Source: the human T2T-CHM13v2.0 reference genome, Homo sapiens. Taken from it: DNA of 64,000 nt. The stretch's first letter is position 1. The number at the start of each line of letters is the position of its first letter. The stretch lies in assembly GCF_009914755.1 (NCBI RefSeq), contig NC_060931.1; one strand, given 5' to 3'. This document shows positions 14,843-29,757 of this stretch, piece after piece. A model generated the notes under the pieces. The model was not told the origin of the DNA and searched no databases. It was given only the letters and a program-made list of their open reading frames with translations. The translations under genes were made by a program, and so were the position numbers.

Positions 14843-15980
14843 TATAGTGTGTGTCCTTTTGTGTCTGGCTGATTCCACTTAGCATAATGTCCTCAGGGTT
14901 CGTCCATGTCGTTCCATGGATCAGAATTTCATTTCTTTTTATGGTGAATGGTGCTGCATTGTAGGGATAGGCCACATTTTTCTTATTCATTCCTCAGTGG
15001 ATGGACATTTGGGTAGTTTCCACTTCCTGGCTATCGTGACTAGTGCTGCTATGAATGTTTGGGCACATGTGTTTGTTTGAGTTCGTATTTTCAGTTCTCC
15101 AGGGCATAGCCCTAGGAGCGGAATTGCTGGATCACATAGAAATTCTGTGTCACTTTTTGAGAAACTGCCAAGCTCAGTCATCTGTTTTAATGGGCCCCCA
15201 ACGCCTTCTAGCAACTCTGATTTATTCTCATTTTACATATGAAGGAAAGCCAAGGTTCAGAAACATGTCCGAGGCCACAGCTCATAAAGAACCAGCCAAG
15301 ACAACAACCCAGATCTGTCTTAGGCCCACATCTGAGCTCTTTGCTCCTCCCAATGTCCCCAAGGCATGGCGTGGCTCTTTCTCTAGGTTGGACTGGGCCT
15401 GGTGCTGTGATCTCTGGGCTCCAGAGACAACTCTGTGCACAGTCCCATGTGACCTAGGACCTATCCCTCCTTCCAAATGACCCTTCCCTGAAGAAGAGGA
15501 CAGGACTTTGATTCTGGCCTCCCCTCTGCCTACAGCAGAGCTTGGAGATGGTCCCATGAGAGCTATGTCATGCTTGACCCAATGATCAGGTTACCAGCCT
15601 CGTCTCCTCTCCTTCTTCCCAGGACTTGGGAAAGGGTACCCTGGCTGTCTCACCAACTGAACTACTCTGACCTGAATCCACTGTTGTTCTCACTGTCCAG
15701 AAAACAGCCCTGGCCCATTTCCTTTACCTAGAGCCCACTGGGCACACTTACAGCCTTCCTACCTCTACCAGCAGCTCCCAGTCTCTCTCATCATGGGGCA
15801 GTGAAGGGGGACTTTGAGGTCAGGAACCTCCCACTAGGAGCATCAAGCCCAGTGGACGCAGGGCCCAAGGCCAGAGCTGTTGGGAGCCTGCAGAAATGAG
15901 AATAAAAAGAAGGCCGCAAAACTGAAATGCTATGAAACACTTAATAAAAGTTACAACTTCATTAATTAAACATTCTGGTT

Positions 15981-16477
15981 TGTTAAATACAATTAGGTTC
16001 CCTCTTCAAACAGCTTATCCAGTTTCCCTGTTCTCCATCCTATAATTCCAAACACCCCCTTGCCTTTGTTGCACCCCAACTTGTCTGAATATGCCTAGGC
16101 ATGCCTGAACTTGCTACAACCCCAGTCCACATTCCTTTCCTTATTAGGGAATAGGTTCCCTTCCTAGTACCCCCGTAAGTGACCCCCCTTCTGTCTCTTC
16201 TCACCCCCCTTATGTGCCAACCTTATCTAAGAAAGTTTAAATGTTTAGCCAATTGGGACTAATTTAGACTGTGGGGTCCAACCCTAGCCAACAGGGGAAA
16301 GACACAGCAGAAACTGTGTTAGAGATAATTAAAACCCCTGCTTTTCTTTGTTCTGGGTGCTCTCGCCGTTGGTGCATCTGTGAAACACACCCTCCTATGG
16401 GAGTAAATTGCCTTTCTGAGAGAATTTTTGTCTCAGTGCTGGTTCTTCTTTGCGGCACTGAGCATTTATTTCCAACA
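15981..16477 (+). mobile_element. 5' LTR (LTR10B-like)
   Basis: TGTTAAATAC...TTCCAACA; roughly 89% identical by eye to 29277-29748. Confidence 0.9.
16077..16116 (+). promoter_or_regulatory. p53 response element (4 tandem half-sites) in 5' LTR
   Basis: CAACTTGTCT GAATATGCCT AGGCATGCCT GAACTTGCTA vs RRRCWWGYYY. Confidence 0.75.
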
Positions 16478-16481
16478 AATT

Positions 16482-16499
16482 TAGTGGCCCATATGGGGA
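16482..16499 (+). other. Primer binding site, tRNA-Ile
   Basis: TAGTGGCCCATATGGGGA vs TGGTGGCCCGTACGGGGA (3 transitions, 2 at CpGs), just after the LTR. Confidence 0.85.
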
Positions 16500-16664
16500 A
16501 ACTAATCCTCCCCTGGGAAAGGGTCTCTGATCGCCTCTCGTGAGGAGACACGTCCCGCTGCCTTGTTGTGGCAGCCACAGTGTGATGAATAAACCTGGAC
16601 TGTCAGCAATGCAGGAAGAAAAGGCCTTCAGTTACTGGGGCAATCGGATAACTCTGTGCACAGA

Positions 16665-16871
16665 CCAAGGTAAGAAAGGCCATGGGAGCCGGCAAAGTAT
16701 TTCCTTGGTGGTCAGGACCAAGGCAAGAAAAGCTTCAGGGGCAGTGAAGTATTCTTTGGTTGGGATATACCAAGGCAAGAAAAGCCACCGGGGCGGTGAG
16801 GTATTCTTTGGTCAGGACACACCAAGGCAAGAAAAGCCGTGGGAGTCGTGAAGTATTCTTTGGTGGTCAGG
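16665..16871 (+). repeat. Four ~52-bp tandem repeats in the proviral leader
   Basis: CCAAGG(C/T)AAGAAA...GTATTC(T)TTGGT x4; first copy has AAG|GTAAGA splice-donor motif. Confidence 0.85.
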
Positions 16872-17050
16872 TTATCTTGGAGGTTGAAAGTGTGTGAAGG
16901 TGCAAGGAATCCCCAGTAGTGGGGTTGAGCCTCCAGGAAAAGGGGTACAAGACATGTCTAATATGAGAAATTGAGCCCCCATTAACCTCCAAGAGGGAGG
17001 TGCAAAAAAAATGTCTAATATGAGAGATTGAGCCCCCATTAACTTCCAGG

Positions 17051-17390
17051 ACGGGAAATATCCCTAGTAAAAGAAGAACTACAAAGGATCAAACACAAAA
17101 AAAAGCAACAGATAATAAAATATTGTTGTTTTATTTGGACCCAAGAACCAATCCTCAGATCCTCAGTTTTCTGGCCAAAGTTTGGGTCAAATAAGGAATA
17201 GATTTGTCAGCTTTTAGTAGAACATATTAATGACAAGAGTCCTTTCTCCCAGGAGGAAATAGATTAAGCCCTATGTTGGTAGTAGTGGCCTGACCCTCTT
17301 TACCTCCTAATGACTGCAGGAAGTAAGCCACAAGCCAACTCCTCTAAGCCGCCTAACACTCCTGACCCTAACCTCCCTCCCGCTCAGGCT
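17051..17390 (+). pseudogene. Truncated retroviral gag (MA/Pro-rich) remnant
   Basis: ACGGGAAAT (decayed ATG-Gly-Asn start), VFWPKFGS motif, stops, Pro-rich end. Confidence 0.65.
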
Positions 17391-17392
17391 GA

Positions 17393-17675
17393 AGCAGTCT
17401 GCCTGAGCTGCAGGGCCTGCCGGAGGTGCACAAACAGTGTGAGGGGAACCTCCCCTATGCTAGGAAACTCCCAGCCCAAAGGAGGGCATCCACAGTTTCC
17501 AGTGTTACTCAGGTAGAAGTTAATGAAAATGCTTACAAAAGTGGCTCTGGCATGCAGATGGCAGAGGACAGCAAGAGGGTAAGACACACCAGACACTGCC
17601 CGGCATCCAGAGAGTGAAGGACAAAGCCCAGTCTGGTGGCAAATGGAAAGTTTAGTGTAGAAAAGGCTCTGTGTG
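17393..17675 (+). pseudogene. NET1: NET1 (ARHGEF8) mRNA fragment: C-terminal coding region and stop
   Basis: PELQGLPEVHKQCEGNLPYARKLPAQRRASTVSSVTQVEVNENAYKSGSGMQMAEDSK/KTHQTLPGIQRVKDKAQSGGKWK/LV* matches the recalled NET1 C-terminus (...RRASTVSSVTQVEVDENAY...GGKRKETLV) with two frameshifts; TAG at 17658-17660. Confidence 0.85.
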
Positions 17676-18846
17676 GGACTTGCTGGCAAGATGGCCAAAT
17701 AGGAACAGCTCTAGTCTGCAGCTCCCAGTGAGATCAACACAGAAAGCGGGTGATTTCTGCATTTCCAAGTGAGGTACCCAGTTCATCTCAATGGGACTGG
17801 TTGGACAGTGGGTACAGCCCACGGAGGGTGAGACGAAGCAGGGTGAGGTGTCGCCTCACCTTGGAAGTGCAAGGGGTCGGGTGATTTCCCTTTCCTAGCC
17901 AAGGGAAGCTTTGAGAGACTGGATCAGGAGGAATAGTGCAATCCGGCCCAGATACTGCACTTTTCCCATGGTCTTCACAACTGGCAGACCAGGAGATTGC
18001 CTCCATAGCCTGTCTCAGCAGGTCCCACTCCCACGGAGCCCAGCAAGCTAAGGTCCACTGGCTTGAAATTCTCGCTGCTAGCACAGCAGTCTGAGGTCGA
18101 CCTGGGACACTCGAGCTTGGTGCGGGGAGGGCGTTCGCCATTGCTGAGGCTTAAGTAGGTGGTTTTACCCTCACAGTGTAAACAAAGCCCTGGGAAGTTC
18201 AAACCGGGCGGAGCCCACTGCAGCTCAACAAGGCGGCTGAAGGCACACTGCCTGTCTAGATTTCCTCCTCTCTGGGCAGGGGATCTCTGAAAAAAAGGCA
18301 GCAGCCCCAGTCTGGGACTTATAGATAAAACCCTTAGCTCCCTGGGACAGAGCACCTGGGGGAAGGGGCGGCTGTGGGCGCAGCTTCAGCAGACTTAAAC
18401 GTCCCTGCCTGACAGTTCTTAAGAGAGCAGTGGATCTCCCAGCACAGTGTTCAAGGTCTGATAAGGGACAGGCTGTCTTCTCAAGTGGGTCCCTGATCCC
18501 CGTGTATCCTGCCTGGGAGACACCTCCCAGTAGGGGCCAACAGACACATCATACAAAAGAGTTCTCGCTGACATCTGGTGGGCACCCCTCTTGGATGAAG
18601 CTTCCAGAGGAAGGAACAGGCAGCAATCTTTGCTATTCTGCAGCCTCCACTGGTGATACCTGGGAAAACAGGGTCTGGAGTGGACCTCTAGCAAACTCCA
18701 GCAGACCTGCAGAAGAGGGGCCTGTTAGAAGGAAAACTAACAAAACAGAAAAGAATAGTAGCAACATCAACAAAAAGGACGTCTACTCCGAGACCCCATC
18801 TGAAGGTCACCAACATCAAAGGCCAAAGGTAGATAAATCCACGAAG

Positions 18847-19869
18847 ATGGGGAGAAACCAGCGCAAAAAGGCTGAAAACTCCAAAAACCAGAACGCCTCT
18901 TCTCCTCCAAAGGATCACAACTCCTTGTCAGCAAGGGAACAAAACTGGATGGAGAATGAGTTTGACGAATTGACAGAAGTAGGCTTCCGAAGGTGGGTAA
19001 TAACAAACTCCTCTGAGCTAAAGGAGCATGTTCTAACCCAATCCAAGGAAGCTAAGAACCTTGAGAAAAGGTTAGACAAATTGCTAACTAGAATATCCAG
19101 TTTAGAGAAGAACATAAATGACCTGATGGAGCTGAAAAACACAGCACGAGAACTTCTTGAAGCATACACAAGTATCAATAGACGAATTGATCAAGTGGAA
19201 GAAAAGATACCAGAGATTGAAGATCAACTCAATGAAATAAAGCAAGAAAACAAGATTAGAGAAAAAAGAGTGAAAAGAAAGGAACAAAGCCTCCAAGAAA
19301 TATGGGACTATGTGAAAAGGCCAAATATACATTTGATTGCTGTTCCTGAAAGTGACGGGGAGAATGGAACCAAGTTGGAAAACACTCTTCAGGATATTAT
19401 CCAGGAGAACCTCCCCAACCTAGCAAGGCAGGCCAACATTCAAATTCAGGAAATACAGAGAACACCACAAAGATATTCCTCAAGAAGAGCAACCCCAAGA
19501 CATATAATCGTCAGATTCTCCAAGGTTGAAATGAAGGAAAAAATGTTAAGATCAGTCAGAGAGAAAGGTCAGGTTACCCACAAAGGGAAGCCCATCAGAC
19601 TAACAGCAGATCTCTTGGCAGAAACCCTACAAGCCAGAAGAGAGTGGGGGCCAATATTCAACATTCTTAAAAGAATTTTCAACCCAGAATTTCCTATCCA
19701 GCCAAACTAAGCTTCATAAGTGAAGGAGAAATAAAATCCTTTACAGACAAGAAAATGCTGAGAGATTTTGTCACCACCAGGCCTGCCTTACAAGAGCTCC
19801 TGAAGGAAGCACTAAACATGGAAAGGAATGACCGGTACCAGCCATGGCAAAAAACATGCCAAATTGTAA
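18847..19869 (+). pseudogene. L1 ORF1p, frameshifted near 19670
   Basis: MGRNQRKK...EIWDYVKRPN...TPRHIIVRF...ARREW then frame loss. Confidence 0.9.
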
Positions 19870-19931
19870 AGACCATTGACACCATGAAGAAACTGCATCT
19901 ACTAACGGGCAAAATAACCAGCTAGCGTCAT

Positions 19932-23737
<3,806 letters not shown>

Positions 23738-23972
23738 ACAATGAAAACACATGGACACAGGGAGGGGAACATCACACACTGGGGCCTGTCAGAGGGTGGG
23801 GGTAGGGGAGGGATAGCATTAGGAGAAATACCTAATGTAGATGACAGGTTGATGGGTGGAGCAAACTACCATGGCACATGTATACCTACGTAATAAATCT
23901 GCACATTCTGCACATGTACCCCAGAACTTAAAGTATAATAAAAAAAAAAAAAGAAAGAAAAGGCTCTGTGTG

Positions 23973-24930
23973 TTAACTGGTGGAAAGACTGTTTATAAAT
24001 GTATACAGTTTTGTTTTCTTGTAATAAAAGCCTCATAAGTTTACTTTATACCAGTTGTAACATTCTCATTTTTTTGGTTGTTCTTTTTTCTTTTTTTAAT
24101 GGCAGCTAAAGATATACAGATTACTGTTAAATTGCAGTCCTTTTTAAAAAAATATTTTCTTGAATTATTTAGAACATGCAAGCCTGGTATTTTTAATCAA
24201 ATAAAATATTTATAAAATAGGTGTTCTCTTATTCTGGATTCATCCTGGTTTTCTAATACCAATTGTAATATTTACAATATTCACCAAAACTTAGAATTTT
24301 GCAAATACTGGAATTCTACCAGTGCTTCTTTAATAAGCCTTGCATGTATAATTTGAAATTTTAACACTGGCACTCAAAATCTACATGAAATGTATGTTTA
24401 AAGTATTTCAAAATTTACATTGAAACATAACTTCATTAGAAAATAAACTATAAGCCTAAGTAGGTTTTTAATTTTATCAACTGGAATGCTATTAGTCGGT
24501 TTTTCACCATACATTCCTCATTTTACATTCATTTAACCTGTCAATTAATTTATTTTATTGTAGTTTTTAGCATTTGCTTTTTTTTAATGCTTTTTCAAAT
24601 TAGCAAGTCTTTATTTTTCTTTCTGATTAAAAATGTGTGTGTGTATATATATGTGTGTATATATGTGTATATATGTGTGTGTGTGCATATATATATATAC
24701 ACACACACATATATTTAATCACACCAACTTTACCAAGTAAAACCAAGCCACACTGATTTTAAGCCAATTAAGAAAACTGCCATTTTTAAAGTGTAGCATT
24801 TCAGGGTAAAGACCCATGAAATGACTTAGTGTATTCTAGACTACCAAAAGAAAACCACTTCAAAAATTTTGTTAAAAGTTTTAGTGTTGTCTGAAAAGCA
24901 AGAAGGAAAATGGTAGTAAAAGAAGAAGAG
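23973..24930 (+). pseudogene. NET1: Probable NET1 3'UTR continuation
   Basis: AT-rich non-retroviral sequence contiguous with the NET1 stop once the L1 and one TSD are removed; 3' boundary uncertain; no poly(A). Confidence 0.7.
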
Positions 24931-24974
24931 AGGAAAAGACAGCAGTTTTGTCTGGTTGTGCCAGACATTTCACA

Positions 24975-25470
24975 AGTGTAAAAGGAAATAGGAGAAGCTC
25001 AAAAGTATATGTAAGAAGAGAGGAAAGAGAAACTGGGAGAGATAGGAAGGGAGAAAGTGAGAAGGGAAATCAGAAAGAGAAAGGGGAGGAAACGGCAGAT
25101 GTGGAGAGCCAGAGAGAGAGAGAAAGAGGACGAGACTGAGCATGAGGGAGAGAGGAAACAGGGAGGGGGAGAGAGGAAACAGGGAGGGGGAGAGAGGAAA
25201 CAGGGAGGGGGAGAGAGGAAACAGGGAGGGGGAGAGAGGAAACGGGGGGGAGGGAGAGGGAGGGAGAGGGAGGGAGAGGGAGGGAGGGGGAGGGAGGGGG
25301 AGGGAGGGGGAGGGAGGGGGAGGGAGGGGGAGGGAGGGGAAGGGAGGGGGAGGGAGGGGGAGGGGAGGGAGGGAGCACGAGAGAGAGAGACAGACAGAGA
25401 GAGAGGGAGAGAAATGGGGGAGAGAGGGAGGGGGAGAGAGAGAAAATAAGATAAAGACTTAAGGAAGAGA
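24975..25470 (+). repeat. GA-rich tract with 21-bp (GGAGAGAGGAAACAGGGAGGG) and 10-bp (AGGGAGGGGG) tandem repeats
   Basis: Directly visible at 25147-25375. Confidence 0.9.
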
Positions 25471-25472
25471 CC

Positions 25473-26212
<740 letters not shown>

Positions 26213-26605
26213 CAGTCTGGCAATAAAAGATTTAGACAGAAACAGAAAGATTGGAGAGAGAGAGAGAGAGGAAGAGAATGAGAGACTGGAAGAAACAGAT
26301 TAAAGAGAGATACAGAAGGTGAATCTGGGGAGAGAGATAGTGTAAAAGGAAGAGAGAGGAAGAGACGAGACAGACAAAAAGCGCGAGCGAGAAGGTGAGA
26401 GAAATTAAGAACTATGAAAGACAGCAGCTAGGAGACAAAGGAGGCAGAAGACTGCCTGGGTGCCACAGCACCCACACCGTCCTCTTGCCCCCTGTCATTG
26501 CGACCCCAGAGCTGGTCCTTGATGGAGGAGAGCCGACCTCGCAGCAGCCTGAGCCTGGCCAGCAGCGCCTCCACCATCTCCCCGGTCAGCAGCCTAAGTC
26601 CCAAG
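26213..26605 (+). pseudogene. PLEKHA4: PLEKHA4 (PEPP1) mRNA 5' fragment: putative 5'UTR plus codons 1-28
   Basis: 26522-26605 translates to MEESRPRSSLSLASSASTISPVSSLSPK, 25/28 identical to the recalled PLEKHA4 N-terminus MEGSRPRSSLSLASSASTISSLSSLSPK; assigning the upstream GA-rich part to the UTR is inference. Confidence 0.82.
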
Positions 26606-27540
26606 CTATATGTAATACAGTTCTCAGAGTCTATGGAGGTATAAAAATTTATGCTTTGGCAAAACAAGTTACAGATAGTTGCCTAATATGTAAAAACAAA
26701 AACGAACAAAAAAACTAATAAGCAAACTCTAAGAAGGTCGCCCCTTAAAGGAAAGGACTCAGGATTAAGGCCGTTCCAAAGTGTCCAAATTGATTACACT
26801 GAAATGCCCCAAATAGGTCACCTAAAGTACCTACTAGTGATAGTAGATCACCTTACTCACTGGGTAGAGACTATTCCCTTTTCAAGTGCAACTGCCAGTA
26901 ATGTAGTGAAAGCATTAATTAAAAATATTCTACCCAGGTTTAGATGAATAGAAAATATTGATTCAGATAATAAGACTCATTTCACTGCACGTCATTAAGA
27001 AATTAGCCCAAGTACTAAACATAACATAGGAATACCATACTCCCTGGCACTCACCTTCGTCAGGAAGAGCATAGAGAATGAACCAAACTCTGAGGAGCCA
27101 CTTAAACAAATTAGTTTTAGAGACTCCTCCCCATTGCCTTGTTAAGAGTCAGGACCGCCCCTCGGAAAGATGTCAGCGTATCCCCTTATAAAATAATATG
27201 TAAGTTGCCTTATTTACACTCTACTGCTGACATTCCTACGTTGAAAACAAAAGATCAGTTTCTCAAAAACTATATACTTGGTCTATCTTCCACTTTCTCT
27301 TCCCTCAGAGCTGAAGACCGCCTTTTAGTACAGCTGCCACCCCTGGAGCTCCCAGCACACCTGCGTCAACCTGGAAATCACGTTCTGATTAAGAGCTGGA
27401 GAGAAGGAAAACTCGAACCGGCTTAGGAAGGACCCTACCTAGTGCTTCCAACTACTGAGACCACAGTATGAACAGCAGAAAGAGGGTGGACTCACCATAC
27501 TTGAGTCAAGAAAGTGCCACCATCTTTAGAGTCATAGACC
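26598..27540 (+). pseudogene. Retroviral integrase remnant
   Basis: QAICNTVLRVY...CLIC zinc finger, QIDYTEMP, LLVIVDHLTHWVE, YHTPWHSPSSG, EGPYLV motifs with stops. Confidence 0.88.
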
Positions 27541-27559
27541 ATTGTTCTAGGATCAAGTC

Positions 27560-29255
27560 CCAACAAACTAAAGCTAAGGAAAGTCTCACCCTCTTATATC
27601 TCTTTTATTGTCTCTGCTTCTTCCCTCACTCCACTGTCAGCGCCCCCCACCAAAACTATTGTGTTTGATGCTTAGCCATACCCTGTGGAGACCTACAAAG
27701 TCAAAGGCAACCAGCCTCTTCAGAAAAGTATCTTTGCCCTTAGTACTCACCCCACTCTCAACATAATCCTTGTAAAATTCCTTATCATTGGCTACCTTGC
27801 TATTCCCGGTATGATATTCTCTGGACCACTCAGTCCCAGGGCTAGGCTTCCTCAGAAGGCTGTACCTCCCTAAAACCTTACCTTCATTTTACTAAAGGAA
27901 CTACACCTGTTATTCCTATAACTAATGAGAAAACCAAGGTGTCCATTATAAAAGTAAAAGATCTAAAACAAACCCTAGCAATGGAGACAGGATACCGAAG
28001 TACAAATGCCTGGCTGGAATGGATTAAATATTCCATCCGCACCCTAAGCAAAAGCGACTGTTACACTTGTGTGCACGGTAGACCAGAGGCCCAGATCATC
28101 CCCTTTCAACTTAGTCTCCCCACTGACCAGGCACGAGCTGTAAGGTAGCTCTTTTTCAAGACCCCCACAGCCTGGGAAGACAAATCGGGCCAAGCTCTTT
28201 CTCTGCTGTTCCCAGAAGTTTCGACATCCTGTGGGTCAGGCCCCAAAGGCCATCCAGCCTCCGCCTTCCAATGCCAAGTTTACCTCATGTCTCTGATGAC
28301 AGGGAAGAAACGTAGCATTCCTTGGAGACTTAAAGGGATGCAAAGAGCTTAGGCCCTTCCAATAGCTTACCCATCAGTTTGCCCTTAGCCATCCCCAAGC
28401 GGATATATGGTGGTATTGTGGTGGACCCCTGCTGGACGCTCTGCCAAGCAAATGGAGCGAAACTTGTACTCTAATTCTATTGGCTATCTCTTTCACCCTC
28501 GTATTTCATCAACCTGAGAAAGTAAAAGCAAAGGTCTGTAAGCCGAGAGAGACCCCTTGTGAGTCTTTTGATCCTCAGGTTTATATAAATGCCATCGAGT
28601 TTCCATGAGGAGCACCAAATAAATTTAAAGCTCAAAACCAGTTAGTTGCAGAGTTTGAATTGCATTGTTCTGGTGGGTAACTATTAATAAAAATGTAAAT
28701 TAGATAAATTACATTGACTACAACCAGCAACGATTTGTTAACTATACCAAAGATGCCATTAAAGGAATAGCTGAACAATTAGGATTCACCAGTCAAATGG
28801 CCTGGGAAAATAGGATGGCATTAGCCATGATACTATCAGAGAAAGGTGACGTTTGTGTCGTGATTGGAACCCAGTATTGTACTTTCATCCCTAAAAACAC
28901 AGCCCCCAGTGGACAATCACAAAGGCCGTGTAGGGCCTTGCCTCTCTGTCAGATGAATTGGCTAAAAACTCCAGAATAGATGATCCCTTTACAAGCCTCA
29001 GGGGAAAGTGGTTCGGTGGGTGGAAAAAGCTAGTAACTTCAATAGTTACCTCCCTGGTAATTGTTGTAAGTGTACTAATTCTTGTTGGATGTTGCCTCAG
29101 ATCCTGTGCTCAAGGATGAATACAAAAACTCATTGAGACAACCCTCACTTTCCTCAATTCTCCCCCACTTTATTCAGATAAGCTCTTTCTTTCAGAAGAT
29201 CAAGCAGAACAACAAAGTTAAAACATGTTAGAAAGGTTTGAAGAGGAAAGATTAT
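27560..29255 (+). pseudogene. Retroviral env remnant
   Basis: NAWLEWIKYS...CYTC; TM heptad and ISD (WENRMALAMILSEKGDVC), CX6CC-like CVVIGTQYC, hydrophobic anchor. Confidence 0.88.
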
Positions 29256-29276
29256 AAAAATCAAAAGGGGTGAAAT

Positions 29277-29748
29277 TGTTAAATACAGTTAAGTTCTCTC
29301 TTTAAACAGCTTATCCAAATACCCCCTTGCCTTTGCTATACCCCAACTTGTCTGTACATGCCTAGGCATGCCTGAACTTGCTACAACCCCAGTCCACATT
29401 CCTTTCCTTATTAGGTAATAGGTTACCTTCCTAGTCCCCCTGTAAGTGACCCCCCTTCTCTCTCTTCTCACCCCTCTTACTTGCCTACCTTATATAAGAA
29501 AGTTTAACTGTTTAGCCAATAGGGACTAGTTTAGACTGTGGGTTCCAACCCTAGCCAACAGAGGAAAGACATAGAAGCAGAGGCTGTGTTAGAGATAATA
29601 AAAACCCATGGTTTCCTTTGTTCTGGGTACTCTCGCCATTGCTCCATTCACGAGATGCACCTTCCTATAGGAGCAAATTGCCTTGCTGAGAAATCCTTTG
29701 TCTCAGTGCTGGTTCTTCTTTGCAGCACTGAGCATTTTTTTTCCAACA
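29277..29748 (+). mobile_element. 3' LTR (LTR10B-like), preceded by PPT 29263-29276
   Basis: AAAAGGGGTGAAAT|TGTTAAATAC...TTCCAACA. Confidence 0.9.
29344..29383 (+). promoter_or_regulatory. p53 response element (4 tandem half-sites) in 3' LTR
   Basis: CAACTTGTCT GTACATGCCT AGGCATGCCT GAACTTGCTA; all four CWWG cores intact. Confidence 0.8.
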
Positions 29749-29757
29749 TGTTTATAA

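What the first reader, a model, noticed from the sequence alone, without database searches (positions are those of the whole stretch)
15981..29748. HERV-I/LTR10B provirus that appears to have transduced two host mRNAs (NET1 and PLEKHA4)
Seen: LTR - PBS(Ile) - leader - gag stub - NET1 3' CDS and 3'UTR - GA-rich tract/env duplicate - PLEKHA4 N-terminal codons - integrase - env - PPT - LTR. Both inserts are sense to the virus, lie where CA/NC/PR/RT/RNaseH should be, and show no poly(A) or TSD. Established: acutely transforming retroviruses capture host mRNA by co-packaging and RT template switching, losing viral genes; FAM8A1 capture by HERV-K14 is a rare germline precedent; NET1 is a RhoA GEF found as a transforming gene. 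Inference: this is a fossil non-autonomous vector with cis elements retained and two independent captures. I cannot tell from here whether it is already described.
Basis: partly seen in the sequence, partly recalled or inferred. Interest (0 to 1): 0.92.

Follow-up and report, generated by a model that had tools for sequence, protein, structure and literature searches.

The report
Retrovirus fossil carrying two host mRNAs
This is an ancient, defective endogenous retrovirus that picked up pieces of two human gene transcripts (NET1 and PLEKHA4) before it entered the genome and was then copied to other chromosomes, which is a rare event in the human retroviral fossil record.

Summary

**What the window holds.** Window 15981-29748 is a class-I provirus with a tRNA-Ile primer-binding site, paired LTRs and a 5-bp target duplication.
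- About 0.9 kb of gag is replaced by 1.3 kb of the last NET1 exon: 88 C-terminal codons plus about 1.05 kb of 3'UTR, with no DH/PH domain.
- NC, PR, RT, RNase H and the start of IN are replaced by about 0.62 kb of spliced PLEKHA4 exon 1 + exon 2.
About 19-22 nt of gag separate the two inserts.
- All four junctions show 1-7 nt of microhomology, with no poly(A) and no insert-level duplication.

**The decisive evidence.**
- A chr1 provirus has the same four junctions.
- A chr19 provirus has the same PLEKHA4|IN junction but no NET1.
- Flanks differ, and each copy has its own 5-bp duplication (4 of 5 bases matching in 3 of 3 copies).
- So the chimera existed before integration and was mobilised in trans.

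**Later, chr7-only events.** The L1, the Alu, the env duplicate and the GGGAGG expansion are absent from the chr1 copy.

**Novelty.** My literature searches found no description of this element. The closest precedent is FAM8A1 in HERV-K14. I rate it a new member of a known kind and moderately interesting.

The parts
15976..15980 (+). Left copy of the 5-bp target-site duplication (TGGTT)
   Evidence: It matches 29749-29753 (TGTTT) at 4 of 5 bases.
15981..16477 (+). 5' LTR (TG...CA)
   Evidence: K2P 0.134 to the 3' LTR over 469 sites.
16482..16499 (+). Primer-binding site complementary to the tRNA-Ile(AAT) 3' end, 15 of 18 positions
   Evidence: for the sequence. Searches place the motif at the 3' end of 4 of 4 scanned tRNA-Ile genes. 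The 15 of 18 is a hand count.
16500..17391 (+). Leader (with 52-nt x2.8 and 57-nt x2 tandem repeats) and the 5' part of gag (MA to p12-like region). The gag initiation codon is mutated in this copy.
   Evidence: The stretch aligns to canonical chr20 copy L044 831-1770.
17392..17675 (+). NET1 last exon, first part. It starts about 5 nt inside the exon and covers 88 C-terminal codons (now with indels and a stop), the NET1 stop codon at 17658-17660, and the start of the 3'UTR.
   Evidence: plus the RefSeq NET1 pseudogene annotation.
17676..23972 (+). Later full-length L1 insertion (17676-23956, including its poly(A)) plus the second copy of its 16-nt target duplication (23957-23972). It is absent from the chr1 paralogue.
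23973..25002 (+). NET1 3'UTR, continued. It ends inside the UTR with no poly(A).
   Evidence: Parent chr10 homology ends at L033 4405, and the parent sequence runs on about 380 nt to an ATTAAA plus A-run.
25003..25021 (+). Short gag remnant (end of the CA region, upstream of NC) between the two host inserts. It shares CAA with the NET1 side and AGAGA with the PLEKHA4 side.
   Evidence: L044 2694-2720.
25017..25474 (+). PLEKHA4 exon 1 (5'UTR), first part, including a chr7-specific GGGAGG-type tandem expansion at 25160-25442
   Evidence: Parent is L032 4475-4279.
25475..26206 (+). chr7-specific insertion inside PLEKHA4 exon 1: a same-sense copy of env 27845-28330, itself carrying an Alu (25491-25757)
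   Evidence: It is absent from chr1 and from the parent.
26207..26515 (+). PLEKHA4 exon 1, second part
   Evidence: Parent is L032 4275-3944.
26516..26605 (+). PLEKHA4 exon 2, complete: ATG at 26522 and 28 codons. It ends at the exon's natural donor position. CCCAAG (26600-26605) is shared with IN.
   Evidence: The parent gene is identified as PLEKHA4.
26600..27600 (+). Integrase remnant (its N-terminal start is missing). A 20-nt deletion near 27125 is shared with the chr1 copy only.
   Evidence: (rve E 5.9e-7).
27600..29262 (+). env remnant with many stops. The TM part at 28704-28979 resembles Syncytin-1 TM.
   Evidence: E 0.0027. Pfam gave no hit. The boundary with IN is approximate.
29263..29270 (+). 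Polypurine tract (AAAAGGGG), 6 nt upstream of the 3' LTR
   Evidence: read directly.
29277..29748 (+). 3' LTR
29749..29753 (+). Right copy of the target-site duplication (TGTTT)

Best explanation
The window holds one of three surviving copies of a non-autonomous HERV-I-type (tRNA-Ile PBS, gamma-like) retrovirus lineage that carried host mRNA sequence inside its genome before integration.

**Proposed sequence of events**
1. A virus of this lineage acquired the 5' end of spliced PLEKHA4 mRNA (exon 1 + exon 2) in place of NC/PR/RT/RNase H and the start of IN.
2. A descendant acquired the last exon of NET1 in place of about 0.9 kb of gag.
3. The resulting RNA kept the cis elements (LTRs, PBS, leader, PPT, att ends) but no replication enzymes. 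It was therefore packaged, reverse-transcribed and integrated by proteins from helper HERV-I viruses. This gave independent integrations on chr19 (PLEKHA4 only), chr1 and chr7 (both inserts).
4. After integration the chr7 copy took an L1, a local env duplication, an Alu and a GGGAGG expansion.

**Shown**
- The host origin of both inserts, and splicing of the PLEKHA4 piece.
- Identical junctions at different loci, each with its own target duplication.
- Absence of L1 hallmarks at the insert edges.
- Defects shared by chr7 and chr1.

**Inferred**
- The joins were made by reverse-transcriptase template switching at short microhomologies between co-packaged RNAs.
- PLEKHA4 was captured first and NET1 second.
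For: **1. Host origin**
- The NET1 piece matches chr10:5460070-5461405 at K2P about 0.10-0.14. RefSeq labels it a NET1 pseudogene.
- The PLEKHA4 piece matches two exons at chr19:51862398-51863475 (minus strand) with the intron removed.
- A downstream ORF of that gene matches PDB 1upq (PEPP1/PLEKHA4), identical across the gene's exon portion (about 27 residues) of the 31 aligned.

**2. Copy number**
- The gag|NET1 junction query found 3 of 3 scored candidates: chr7, chr1 and the parent.
- The spliced exon1-exon2 query found 5 of 5: chr7, chr1, chr19:9.84 Mb and the two parent exons.

**3. Same junctions in the paralogues**
- chr1 matches across all four junctions.
- chr19 matches across PLEKHA4|IN.

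**4. Independent integration**
- Flanks do not match except for Alus.
- 5-bp duplications are TGGTT/TGTTT, ATCAG/ATGAG and ATAAA/ATAGA, 4 of 5 bases in 3 of 3 copies. Chance of 4 or more of 5 is about 1.6% each (my arithmetic).

**5. Junction features**
- Microhomology of about 1 nt, CAA, AGAGA and CCCAAG in chr7/chr1, and GAGAAAGA at the different gag(NC)|PLEKHA4 join of chr19.
- No poly(A) and no insert-level duplication.
- Neither insert ends at a poly(A) site.

**6. Defects already present in the progenitor**
- chr7 and chr1 share a 20-nt deletion in IN that is absent from chr19 and from 3 of 3 canonical copies examined.

**7. Distances fit the proposed order**
- IN K2P is 0.097 for chr7-chr1, 0.19 for either against chr19, and 0.22-0.32 against the canonical copies.
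- LTR-LTR K2P is 0.134 (chr7), 0.107 (chr1) and 0.19 (chr19).

**8. Later events**
- The chr1 copy lacks the L1, Alu, env duplicate and expansion.
Against: - **PLEKHA4 content:** the chr7/chr1 copies hold about 90 nt more of the 5' end of PLEKHA4 exon 1 than the older-looking chr19 copy. The chr19 form therefore cannot be their direct ancestor. An unseen ancestor or a further recombination must be assumed.
- **Dating tension:** the chr19 LTR-LTR distance (0.19) exceeds its PLEKHA4-to-parent distance (0.11-0.125 over only 153 and 88 sites). Constraint on the parent or non-identical LTRs must be invoked.
- **Exon-border coincidence:** the PLEKHA4 piece ends exactly at the exon 2 donor, and the NET1 piece begins about 5 nt from its exon's acceptor. 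Random template switching does not predict this.
- **Family label:** only three canonical IN copies were compared, and no repeat library was available, so the family label is not verified.
- **Orthologues:** no other primate genome could be searched, so orthology and empty sites are untested.
- **Coding use:** in the present chr7 copy the gag frame and the NET1 frame differ, and the PLEKHA4 ATG frame is out of frame with IN (hand reading). There is no sign of a fusion protein.
Confidence: 0.85

Rival explanations
1. Mechanistic variant for one junction. The PLEKHA4|IN join was made by RNA splicing rather than template switching. A HERV-I provirus sitting in PLEKHA4 intron 2 was read from the PLEKHA4 promoter, and the exon 2 donor was spliced to a cryptic acceptor in IN. 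This chimeric mRNA was then joined to viral 5' halves by separate template switches, which gave the two different gag|PLEKHA4 joins.
For: - The PLEKHA4 piece ends exactly at the exon 2 donor (CCCCAAG|gt in the parent).
- The 3' join is shared by 3 of 3 copies, whereas the 5' join differs between chr19 and chr7/chr1.
- The capture may begin at or near the transcript's 5' end. This is untested.
Against: - The viral side would need an AAG acceptor with a poor pyrimidine tract (read by eye).
- A 6-7 nt microhomology (CCCAAG) is enough to explain a template switch at this point.
- No HERV-I or LTR sequence remains in about 11 kb at and downstream of exon 2. In L058, 0 of 60 BLAST hits lay outside Alu/L1. 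In L032, 8 of 76 did, and all 8 were exon 1/2 matches.
Confidence: 0.15
2. The host pieces entered a master provirus at the DNA level, for example by L1-mediated or repair-mediated insertion of cDNA fragments with deletion of viral sequence. That altered provirus was then transcribed and mobilised in trans to chr1 and chr7.
For: - It explains shared junctions and independent integrations equally well.
- Microhomology also occurs in end-joining.
Against: - The NET1 piece has no poly(A) tail. It ends about 380 nt before the ATTAAA/A-run in the parent, with no AATAAA or ATTAAA within 35 nt.
- The PLEKHA4 piece is a 5' fragment of an mRNA, the opposite of what target-primed reverse transcription yields.
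- There is no insert-level target duplication.
- Two such events in one provirus, both in sense orientation and both replacing viral genes, are unlikely.
Confidence: 0.08
3. The inserts are ordinary processed pseudogenes that landed in the chr7 provirus after it integrated, and the provirus was never chimeric as a virus.
For: - RefSeq annotates the NET1 part simply as a pseudogene.
- Other retroelements (an L1 and an Alu) did land in this provirus.
Against: - The same junctions occur at chr1 and chr19 with different flanks and their own target duplications.
- There is no poly(A) and no duplication at the insert edges.
- Viral sequence is replaced rather than interrupted.
Confidence: 0.01
4. 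The chr1 and chr19 copies are segmental duplications or gene-conversion products of one chimeric locus, not new integrations.
For: Human pericentromeric and subtelomeric regions do spread small pieces of this area. For example, a 240-nt PLEKHA4 exon-1 fragment occurs in many duplicated blocks.
Against: - Homology stops exactly at the LTR ends in all three copies.
- Flanks are unrelated.
- Each copy has its own 5-bp duplication.
- The chr19 LTRs are only about 73-74% identical to the window's.
Confidence: 0.01

Closest known systems
FAM8A1 transduction by HERV-K14 (Jamain et al. 2001). I saw it only as cited in passages and Supplemental Table 8 of Tan et al. 2016, PMC5131818.
   Same: - A germline endogenous retrovirus carries a piece of host mRNA between its LTRs.
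- There is microsimilarity at the fusion points.
- More than one genomic copy exists.
- The product is an untranscribed pseudogene.
   Different: - A different retroviral class (gamma-like, tRNA-Ile PBS, versus beta-like HERV-K).
- Two unrelated host transcripts in one provirus.
- A PLEKHA4-only relative shows stepwise acquisition.
- One piece is the 5' end of an mRNA including its 5'UTR exon, and the other is a last exon with 3'UTR.
LTR-mediated retrocopies (Tan et al. 2016, Genome Res, PMC5131818). I saw passages and Supplemental Table 8.
   Same: - Partial transcripts flanked by LTR-element sequence.
- Microsimilarity at the joins.
- No L1 hallmarks.
- Template switching is the proposed mechanism.
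   Different: - Their human list has 3 entries (FAM8A1 twice with HERVK14, and ENSG00000176788 with MER4) and contains neither NET1 nor PLEKHA4.
- Their screen needed unique exon-exon junction hits and recent origin. This family may have been missed for that reason (my inference).
Acutely transforming (v-onc) retroviruses (textbook knowledge, recalled)
   Same: - Host mRNA sequence replaces viral genes.
- The virus becomes replication-defective and helper-dependent.
- The cis elements are kept.
   Different: - The NET1 piece lacks the DH/PH catalytic module.
- No frame continuity with gag or IN is seen.
- Nothing suggests a transforming product.
- It was fixed in the germline.
Mosaic or recombinant HERVs such as Harlequin (Vargiu et al. 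2016, PMC4724089, passages; Kojima 2018, PMC5753468, passages)
   Same: - They arise from template jumps between co-packaged RNAs.
- HERVI/HERVIP backbones are frequent partners.
- Several copies share the same mosaic pattern with different flanks.
   Different: - Those mosaics join retroviral sequences to each other, whereas here the partners are cellular mRNAs.
- Vargiu et al. contains no occurrence of 'transduc' (0 hits).
L1-mediated processed pseudogenes
   Same: - An intronless copy of host mRNA.
- The NET1 part is annotated as a pseudogene.
   Different: - No poly(A) tail and no flanking duplication.
- The 3' end is not at a poly(A) site.
- The PLEKHA4 piece is a 5' fragment.
- The pieces travelled with LTRs to three loci.

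Membership tests
Class I (gamma-like) endogenous retrovirus of the HERV-I / HERVIP group | Paired LTRs (TG...CA) bounded by a short target-site duplication | tested here: met
   LTRs at 15981-16477 and 29277-29748. The 5-bp duplication matches at 4 of 5 bases.
Class I (gamma-like) endogenous retrovirus of the HERV-I / HERVIP group | Primer-binding site complementary to tRNA-Ile | tested here: met
   16482-16499 matches at 15 of 18 positions (hand count). The reference is the motif at the 3' end of 4 of 4 scanned tRNA-Ile(AAT) genes. Two of the three mismatches are CpG-type transitions.
Class I (gamma-like) endogenous retrovirus of the HERV-I / HERVIP group | gag, IN and env homology to other members | tested here: met
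   - gag stub: 75-82% identity to about 40 genomic copies.
- IN: Pfam rve, E 5.9e-7, below the gathering score.
- env TM: Syncytin-1 TM, E 0.0027.
- No Pfam env hit.
Class I (gamma-like) endogenous retrovirus of the HERV-I / HERVIP group | LTR subfamily LTR10B (Repbase/Dfam) | not testable with these tools
   No repeat library was on hand. Kojima 2018, Table 4, pairs HERVI with LTR10B/LTR10B1. The chr19 copy's LTRs are only about 73-74% identical to the window's, so more than one LTR type is involved.
Host-sequence-transducing retrovirus / LTR-mediated retrocopy | Insert derived from processed RNA | tested here: met
   PLEKHA4 exon 1 is joined to exon 2 with the intron removed in 3 of 3 copies. 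The NET1 piece is a single exon, so splicing cannot be judged for it.
Host-sequence-transducing retrovirus / LTR-mediated retrocopy | Insert lies in sense between the LTRs and replaces viral sequence, with microhomology at the joins and no poly(A) or flanking duplication | tested here: met
   About 890 nt of gag and the whole NC-to-IN-start stretch are missing.
Host-sequence-transducing retrovirus / LTR-mediated retrocopy | The chimera predates integration: the same junctions occur at two or more loci with different flanks and their own target duplications | tested here: met
   chr7, chr1 and chr19:9.84 Mb.
Acutely transforming retrovirus (v-onc type) | The captured segment includes the functional core of a proto-oncogene, expressed as a viral fusion | tested here: not met
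   - Only the last 88 NET1 codons plus UTR are present.
- Pfam found no family match in the NET1 ORF, so no RhoGEF or PH hit.
- The gag and NET1 frames differ in the present copy.
L1-mediated processed pseudogene | A 3' poly(A) tail at the mRNA end and a target-site duplication flanking the insert | tested here: not met
   - The A-run after NET1 is the canonical gag sequence.
- Parent homology stops about 380 nt before the ATTAAA/A-run.
- No duplication is present at the insert edges.

The most novel reading that the evidence does not exclude
A defective, host-sequence-carrying HERV-I lineage persisted for many millions of years as a parasite of replicating HERV-I. The span runs from the chr19 integration at LTR K2P 0.19 to the chr7/chr1 integrations at about 0.11-0.13. 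It picked up host RNA pieces stepwise and kept them because they helped in cis. One piece is the GA-rich PLEKHA4 5'UTR exon. The other is about 1 kb of NET1 3'UTR. From memory, that UTR is reported to carry GA-rich mRNA-localisation signals; no call here checked this. These pieces may have improved RNA stability, localisation or packaging relative to competing genomes. If so, host-RNA capture would be an adaptive route for non-autonomous retroviruses rather than an accident.
Probability: 0.07. Interest if true: 0.75.

Novelty: new member of a known kind. Interest (0 to 1): 0.6.

Why it matters
**How rare this is.** Germline records of retroviral transduction are very scarce in humans. Tan et al. 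2016 state that a single human case (FAM8A1 in HERV-K) had been described, and they add one more parental gene.

**What this family adds**
- It is a gamma-like example carrying two unrelated host transcripts.
- All four joins are preserved.
- An intermediate form survives (PLEKHA4 only).
- Three independent integrations survive.

**What it allows**
- A natural series for studying how reverse transcriptase joins viral and cellular RNAs, including microhomology lengths and the exon-border positions.
- A way to study how long helper-dependent genomes can survive.
- A way to time HERV-I activity in primates.

**Practical point.** The curated 'NET1 pseudogene' at this locus, and by my inference its chr1 twin, are not L1 retrocopies.

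Tried and rejected
- **In-frame Gag-NET1 fusion.** A hand reading of the chr1/canonical alignment suggested frame continuity. However, a 13-nt gap relative to canonical gag lies just upstream, and in chr7 the gag ORF (17286-17516) and the NET1 ORF (17393-17617) are in different frames. I dropped the idea as unresolvable.
- **NET1 piece ending at a poly(A) site.** The parent has only AGTAAA about 56 nt upstream. Its sequence, and a 67-76% identical chr18 relative, run on to about L033 4787, where there is an ATTAAA plus A-run. An internal end is more likely, but this was not checked against a transcript map.
- **Dating the env duplicate against the LTRs.** Total K2P is 0.099 against 0.134, which is not clearly different. 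Non-CpG K2P is 0.063 against 0.126. This leans towards a later event but is not decisive. All that is firm is that the chr1 copy lacks the duplicate.
- **A 9-nt identity (GAGACTTAA) between env and PLEKHA4 exon 1 near the duplicate.** It does not sit at the observed join, so it explains nothing.
- **A source provirus in PLEKHA4 intron 2.** I found none.
- **Other sites matching window 26410-26497.** About 20 places match. In the 4 of them I examined, the match is a 240-nt PLEKHA4 exon-1 fragment in duplicated blocks, closer to the parent (84-89%) than to the provirus (78-81%) and with no viral flanks. They are not further proviruses.
- **Protein-level searches of the NET1 C-terminus.** PDB gave nothing relevant, and Pfam gave nothing for env, gag or NET1 ORFs.
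- **Literature searches that found no description of this element:** (0 papers). Only open full text was searched. The PDF and .doc supplements of Tan et al. were not readable.

Full report
**1. Observation**

The region is a provirus.
- Two LTRs (15981-16477 and 29277-29748) were found as direct repeats. They align with K2P 0.134 over 469 sites.
- They are bounded by TGGTT / TGTTT.
- Four bases after the 5' LTR lies an 18-mer that matches the complement of the tRNA-Ile(AAT) 3' end at 15 of 18 positions. This is my hand count. The motif was located at the 3' end of 4 of 4 ARAGORN-scanned tRNA-Ile genes.
- A purine tract (AAAAGGGG) precedes the 3' LTR.
- The L1 (17676-23956) has an intact 16-nt target duplication and Pfam ORF1, endonuclease and RT domains.
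- Integrase is supported by Pfam rve (E 5.9e-7, below the gathering score).
- The env TM part is supported by a weak match to Syncytin-1 TM (E 0.0027). Pfam found no env family.

**2. Anatomy, junction by junction**

I used the window's own genome, which could be searched.

(a) *gag|NET1*
- Canonical HERV-I-like gag copies match the window up to about 17348 by BLAST. In alignment they match further, to about 17391.
- Homology to the chr10 parent starts at about 17392, roughly 5 nt inside the last exon. The parent reads ...CCAG|TCGGCAGGCAGTCC at that acceptor.

(b) *NET1|gag*
- Parent homology ends at 25002 (L033 4405) inside the 3'UTR.
- The following bases are canonical gag from just upstream of NC. 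The A-run there belongs to gag and is not a poly(A) tail.
- CAA is shared at the join.
- Against a canonical chr20 copy, the window keeps L044 831-1770 and 2694-2720. About 890 nt of gag are replaced by about 1.33 kb of NET1.

(c) *gag|PLEKHA4*
- From 25017 the sequence matches chr19:51863475 downwards (minus strand), sharing AGAGA with gag.
- The whole "GA-rich tract" is therefore PLEKHA4 exon 1. It is contiguous in the parent (L032 4475-3944). In chr7 it is interrupted at 25475-26206 by the env copy plus Alu, and it is inflated by a GGGAGG-type expansion at 25160-25442.

(d) *Exon 1|exon 2*
- The roughly 457-nt intron is missing.

(e) *PLEKHA4|IN*
- Exon 2 ends at its natural donor (CCCCAAG|gt in the parent) and runs into IN at CCCAAG|CTATGTG. 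Those six bases are shared with 2 of the 3 canonical IN copies aligned; the third reads CTCAAG.

(f) *Identity of the parent gene*
- It is PLEKHA4. An ORF about 3.6 kb downstream carries a PH-domain start. It matches PDB 1upq (PEPP1/PLEKHA4), identical across the gene's exon portion of the 31 aligned residues.
- NET1 identity rests on the RefSeq curated pseudogene label supplied with the finding and on the chr10 parent match.

**3. Paralogues**

- The gag|NET1 junction query returned 3 of 3 scored candidates: chr7, chr1:186984967-186985338 (87%, including the viral side) and the parent.
- The spliced exon1-exon2 query returned 5 of 5: chr7, chr1, chr19:9844775-9844916 and the two separate parent exons.

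*chr1 provirus (chr1:186983595-186992219)*
- It is collinear with the window from LTR to LTR through all four junctions.
- It lacks the chr7 L1, Alu, env duplicate and expansion.
- It carries its own different insertions: an L1 3' fragment in the NET1 UTR, an Alu after the PLEKHA4|IN join, and about 200 bp in env.

*chr19 provirus (about chr19:9835432-9848497)*
- It has a PBS-Ile, leader and gag with its own internal deletion (L044 1507-2385), followed by the NC zinc-knuckle region.
- PLEKHA4 exon 1 then starts about 90 nt further in than in chr7/chr1, joined at GAGAAAGA.
- Exon 2 and the same PLEKHA4|IN join follow. It has no NET1.
- It was later hit by an antisense beta-like provirus. Pfam finds RVP with G-patch, zf-CCHC_5, RVT and RNase H, and its LTR segments are 95% alike. 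Two Alus also landed in it.

*Independent integration*
- Flanks of the three loci do not match apart from Alus.
- Each locus has its own 5-bp duplication with 4 of 5 bases matching: TGGTT/TGTTT, ATCAG/ATGAG and ATAAA/ATAGA. I put the chance of 4 or more of 5 at about 1.6% per locus.
- All three keep full LTRs, so they are integrase products. They are neither segmental duplicates nor L1-made copies.

**4. Order and timing**

*Distances*

| Comparison | K2P |
|---|---|
| LTR-LTR, chr7 | 0.134 |
| LTR-LTR, chr1 | 0.107 |
| LTR-LTR, chr19 | 0.19 |
| IN (about 1 kb), chr7-chr1 | 0.097 |
| IN, chr7 or chr1 against chr19 | 0.19 |
| IN, any of the three against 3 canonical copies | 0.22-0.32 |
| NET1, copy against parent | 0.08-0.18 by segment (0.10 over the 650-nt UTR block) |
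| NET1, chr7 against chr1 | 0.08-0.14 |

*Reading*
- chr7 and chr1 share a 20-nt deletion in IN that chr19 and 3 of 3 canonical copies lack. Their common progenitor was already IN-defective, in addition to lacking PR and RT.
- My reading is that PLEKHA4 was captured first (by the time of the chr19 integration) and NET1 later. chr7 and chr1 then integrated close together in time.
- With the rough 2.5 My per % rule quoted by Vargiu et al., chr7 and chr1 date to about 27-33 My. chr19 is older.

*Caveats*
- chr7/chr1 hold more of the PLEKHA4 exon 1 5' end than chr19 does, so chr19 is a side branch and not the ancestor.
- The chr19 PLEKHA4-to-parent distance (0.11-0.125, over few sites) is lower than its LTR distance.

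**5. Mechanism**

*Shown*
- The inserts are RNA-derived and were part of the element before integration.
- The element lacked replication enzymes.

*Inferred*
- The joins arose by reverse-transcriptase template switching between co-packaged viral and cellular RNAs at 1-8 nt microhomologies. This is the pattern Tan et al. describe for LTR-mediated retrocopies.
- Helper HERV-I supplied Gag, PR, RT and IN.

*Unexplained coincidences and a variant*
- The PLEKHA4 piece ends exactly at an exon border, and the NET1 piece begins about 5 nt from one.
- A variant I rate at about 0.15 is that the PLEKHA4|IN join was made by splicing of a read-in transcript from a provirus in PLEKHA4 intron 2.
- That variant would also explain one shared 3' join with two different 5' joins.
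- No viral remnant is present in about 11 kb at and downstream of exon 2, and the putative acceptor looks poor.

*No evidence of a host-derived protein product*
- The NET1 part lacks DH/PH.
- The gag and NET1 frames differ in chr7.
- The PLEKHA4 ATG frame runs into a stop 10 codons into IN sequence (hand reading).

**6. Comparison with known cases**

- It works like FAM8A1-HERV-K14 and the LTR-mediated retrocopies of Tan et al.
- It resembles v-onc viruses only in architecture.
- It fails the tests for an L1 processed pseudogene (no poly(A), no flanking duplication, wrong ends).
- It fails the tests for a transforming virus (no functional oncogene core).
- It meets the tests for a HERV-I-type provirus, except the LTR10B label, which I could not test.

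**7. Novelty**

*Searches of open full text that found nothing on this element*
- NET1 / endogenous retrovirus / HERV-I.
- PLEKHA4 + endogenous retrovirus: 3 unrelated papers.
- HERVIP10 / LTR10B / NET1.
- Capture terms.
- NET1P1 / NET1 pseudogene / LOC100967223: 0 papers.
- LTR-mediated retrocopies.
- NET1 + HERV + pseudogene: 1 unrelated paper.

*What the closest papers contain*
- Tan et al.'s Supplemental Table 8 lists only FAM8A1 (twice) and ENSG00000176788 for human. Their PDF and .doc supplements could not be read.
- Vargiu et al. never use 'transduc'.

*Limits and verdict*
- Subscription journals and repeat-database notes were not searchable, so an earlier description cannot be excluded.
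- I rate it a new member of a known kind, with interest 0.6.

**8. Open points**

- The TSS and poly(A) landmarks of the two parents.
- The LTR subfamily.
- Whether the env duplicate arose at or after integration (one search is ambiguous).
- Orthology in other primates.

Noticed in passing
window 26410-26497; L010, L012, L013, L015 (chr4:9.56 Mb, chr11:71.6 and 67.9 Mb, chr3:128.5 Mb); further hits on chr8p23, chr14:18.17 Mb and chr6:61.8 Mb: A fragment of PLEKHA4 exon 1 occurs at about 20 places, in what I recall to be segmental-duplication clusters. In the 4 loci I examined it spans about 240 nt (parent L032 4193-3957), is closer to the parent (84-89%) than to the provirus (78-81%), and has no viral or intronic flank. 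The chr14 site also matches the 5' end of exon 1. Its origin is unknown.
   Followed up: partly
L020/L023 (chr18:51637280-51640733): A NET1-like stretch 67-76% identical to the chr10 parent over L033 2445-4787. It extends past the point where the proviral NET1 piece stops. It looks like an older paralogous or retrocopied NET1 3' region.
   Followed up: partly
L030 2654-9106 (chr19:9837654-9844106): An antisense beta-like (HERV-K-type) provirus has inserted into the PLEKHA4 exon-1 part of the chr19 chimeric provirus. Pfam finds protease with G-patch, zf-CCHC_5, RT, RNase H and integrase. Its LTR segments are 95% alike.
   Followed up: partly
window 25160-25442: A chr7-specific G-rich tandem expansion (10-nt unit AGGGAGGGAG, about 27 copies; also read as a 20-nt unit) lies inside the PLEKHA4 exon-1 sequence. 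It is absent from the parent and from the chr1 copy. It could form G-quadruplexes; this was not tested.
   Followed up: partly
window 16717-16864 and 16941-17054: Tandem repeats in the proviral leader: a 52-nt unit x2.8 and a 57-nt unit x2. The chr19 copy has similar repeats. The RefSeq 'enhancer' features supplied with the finding (15633-16832, 16125-16625, 16626-17126) overlap the 5' LTR and this leader.
   Followed up: no
window 24634-24694; L028 6040-7626: The (TG)n(TA)n microsatellite in the NET1 3'UTR is where the chr1 copy took an unrelated insertion of about 1.6 kb, which includes an L1 3' fragment.
   Followed up: no
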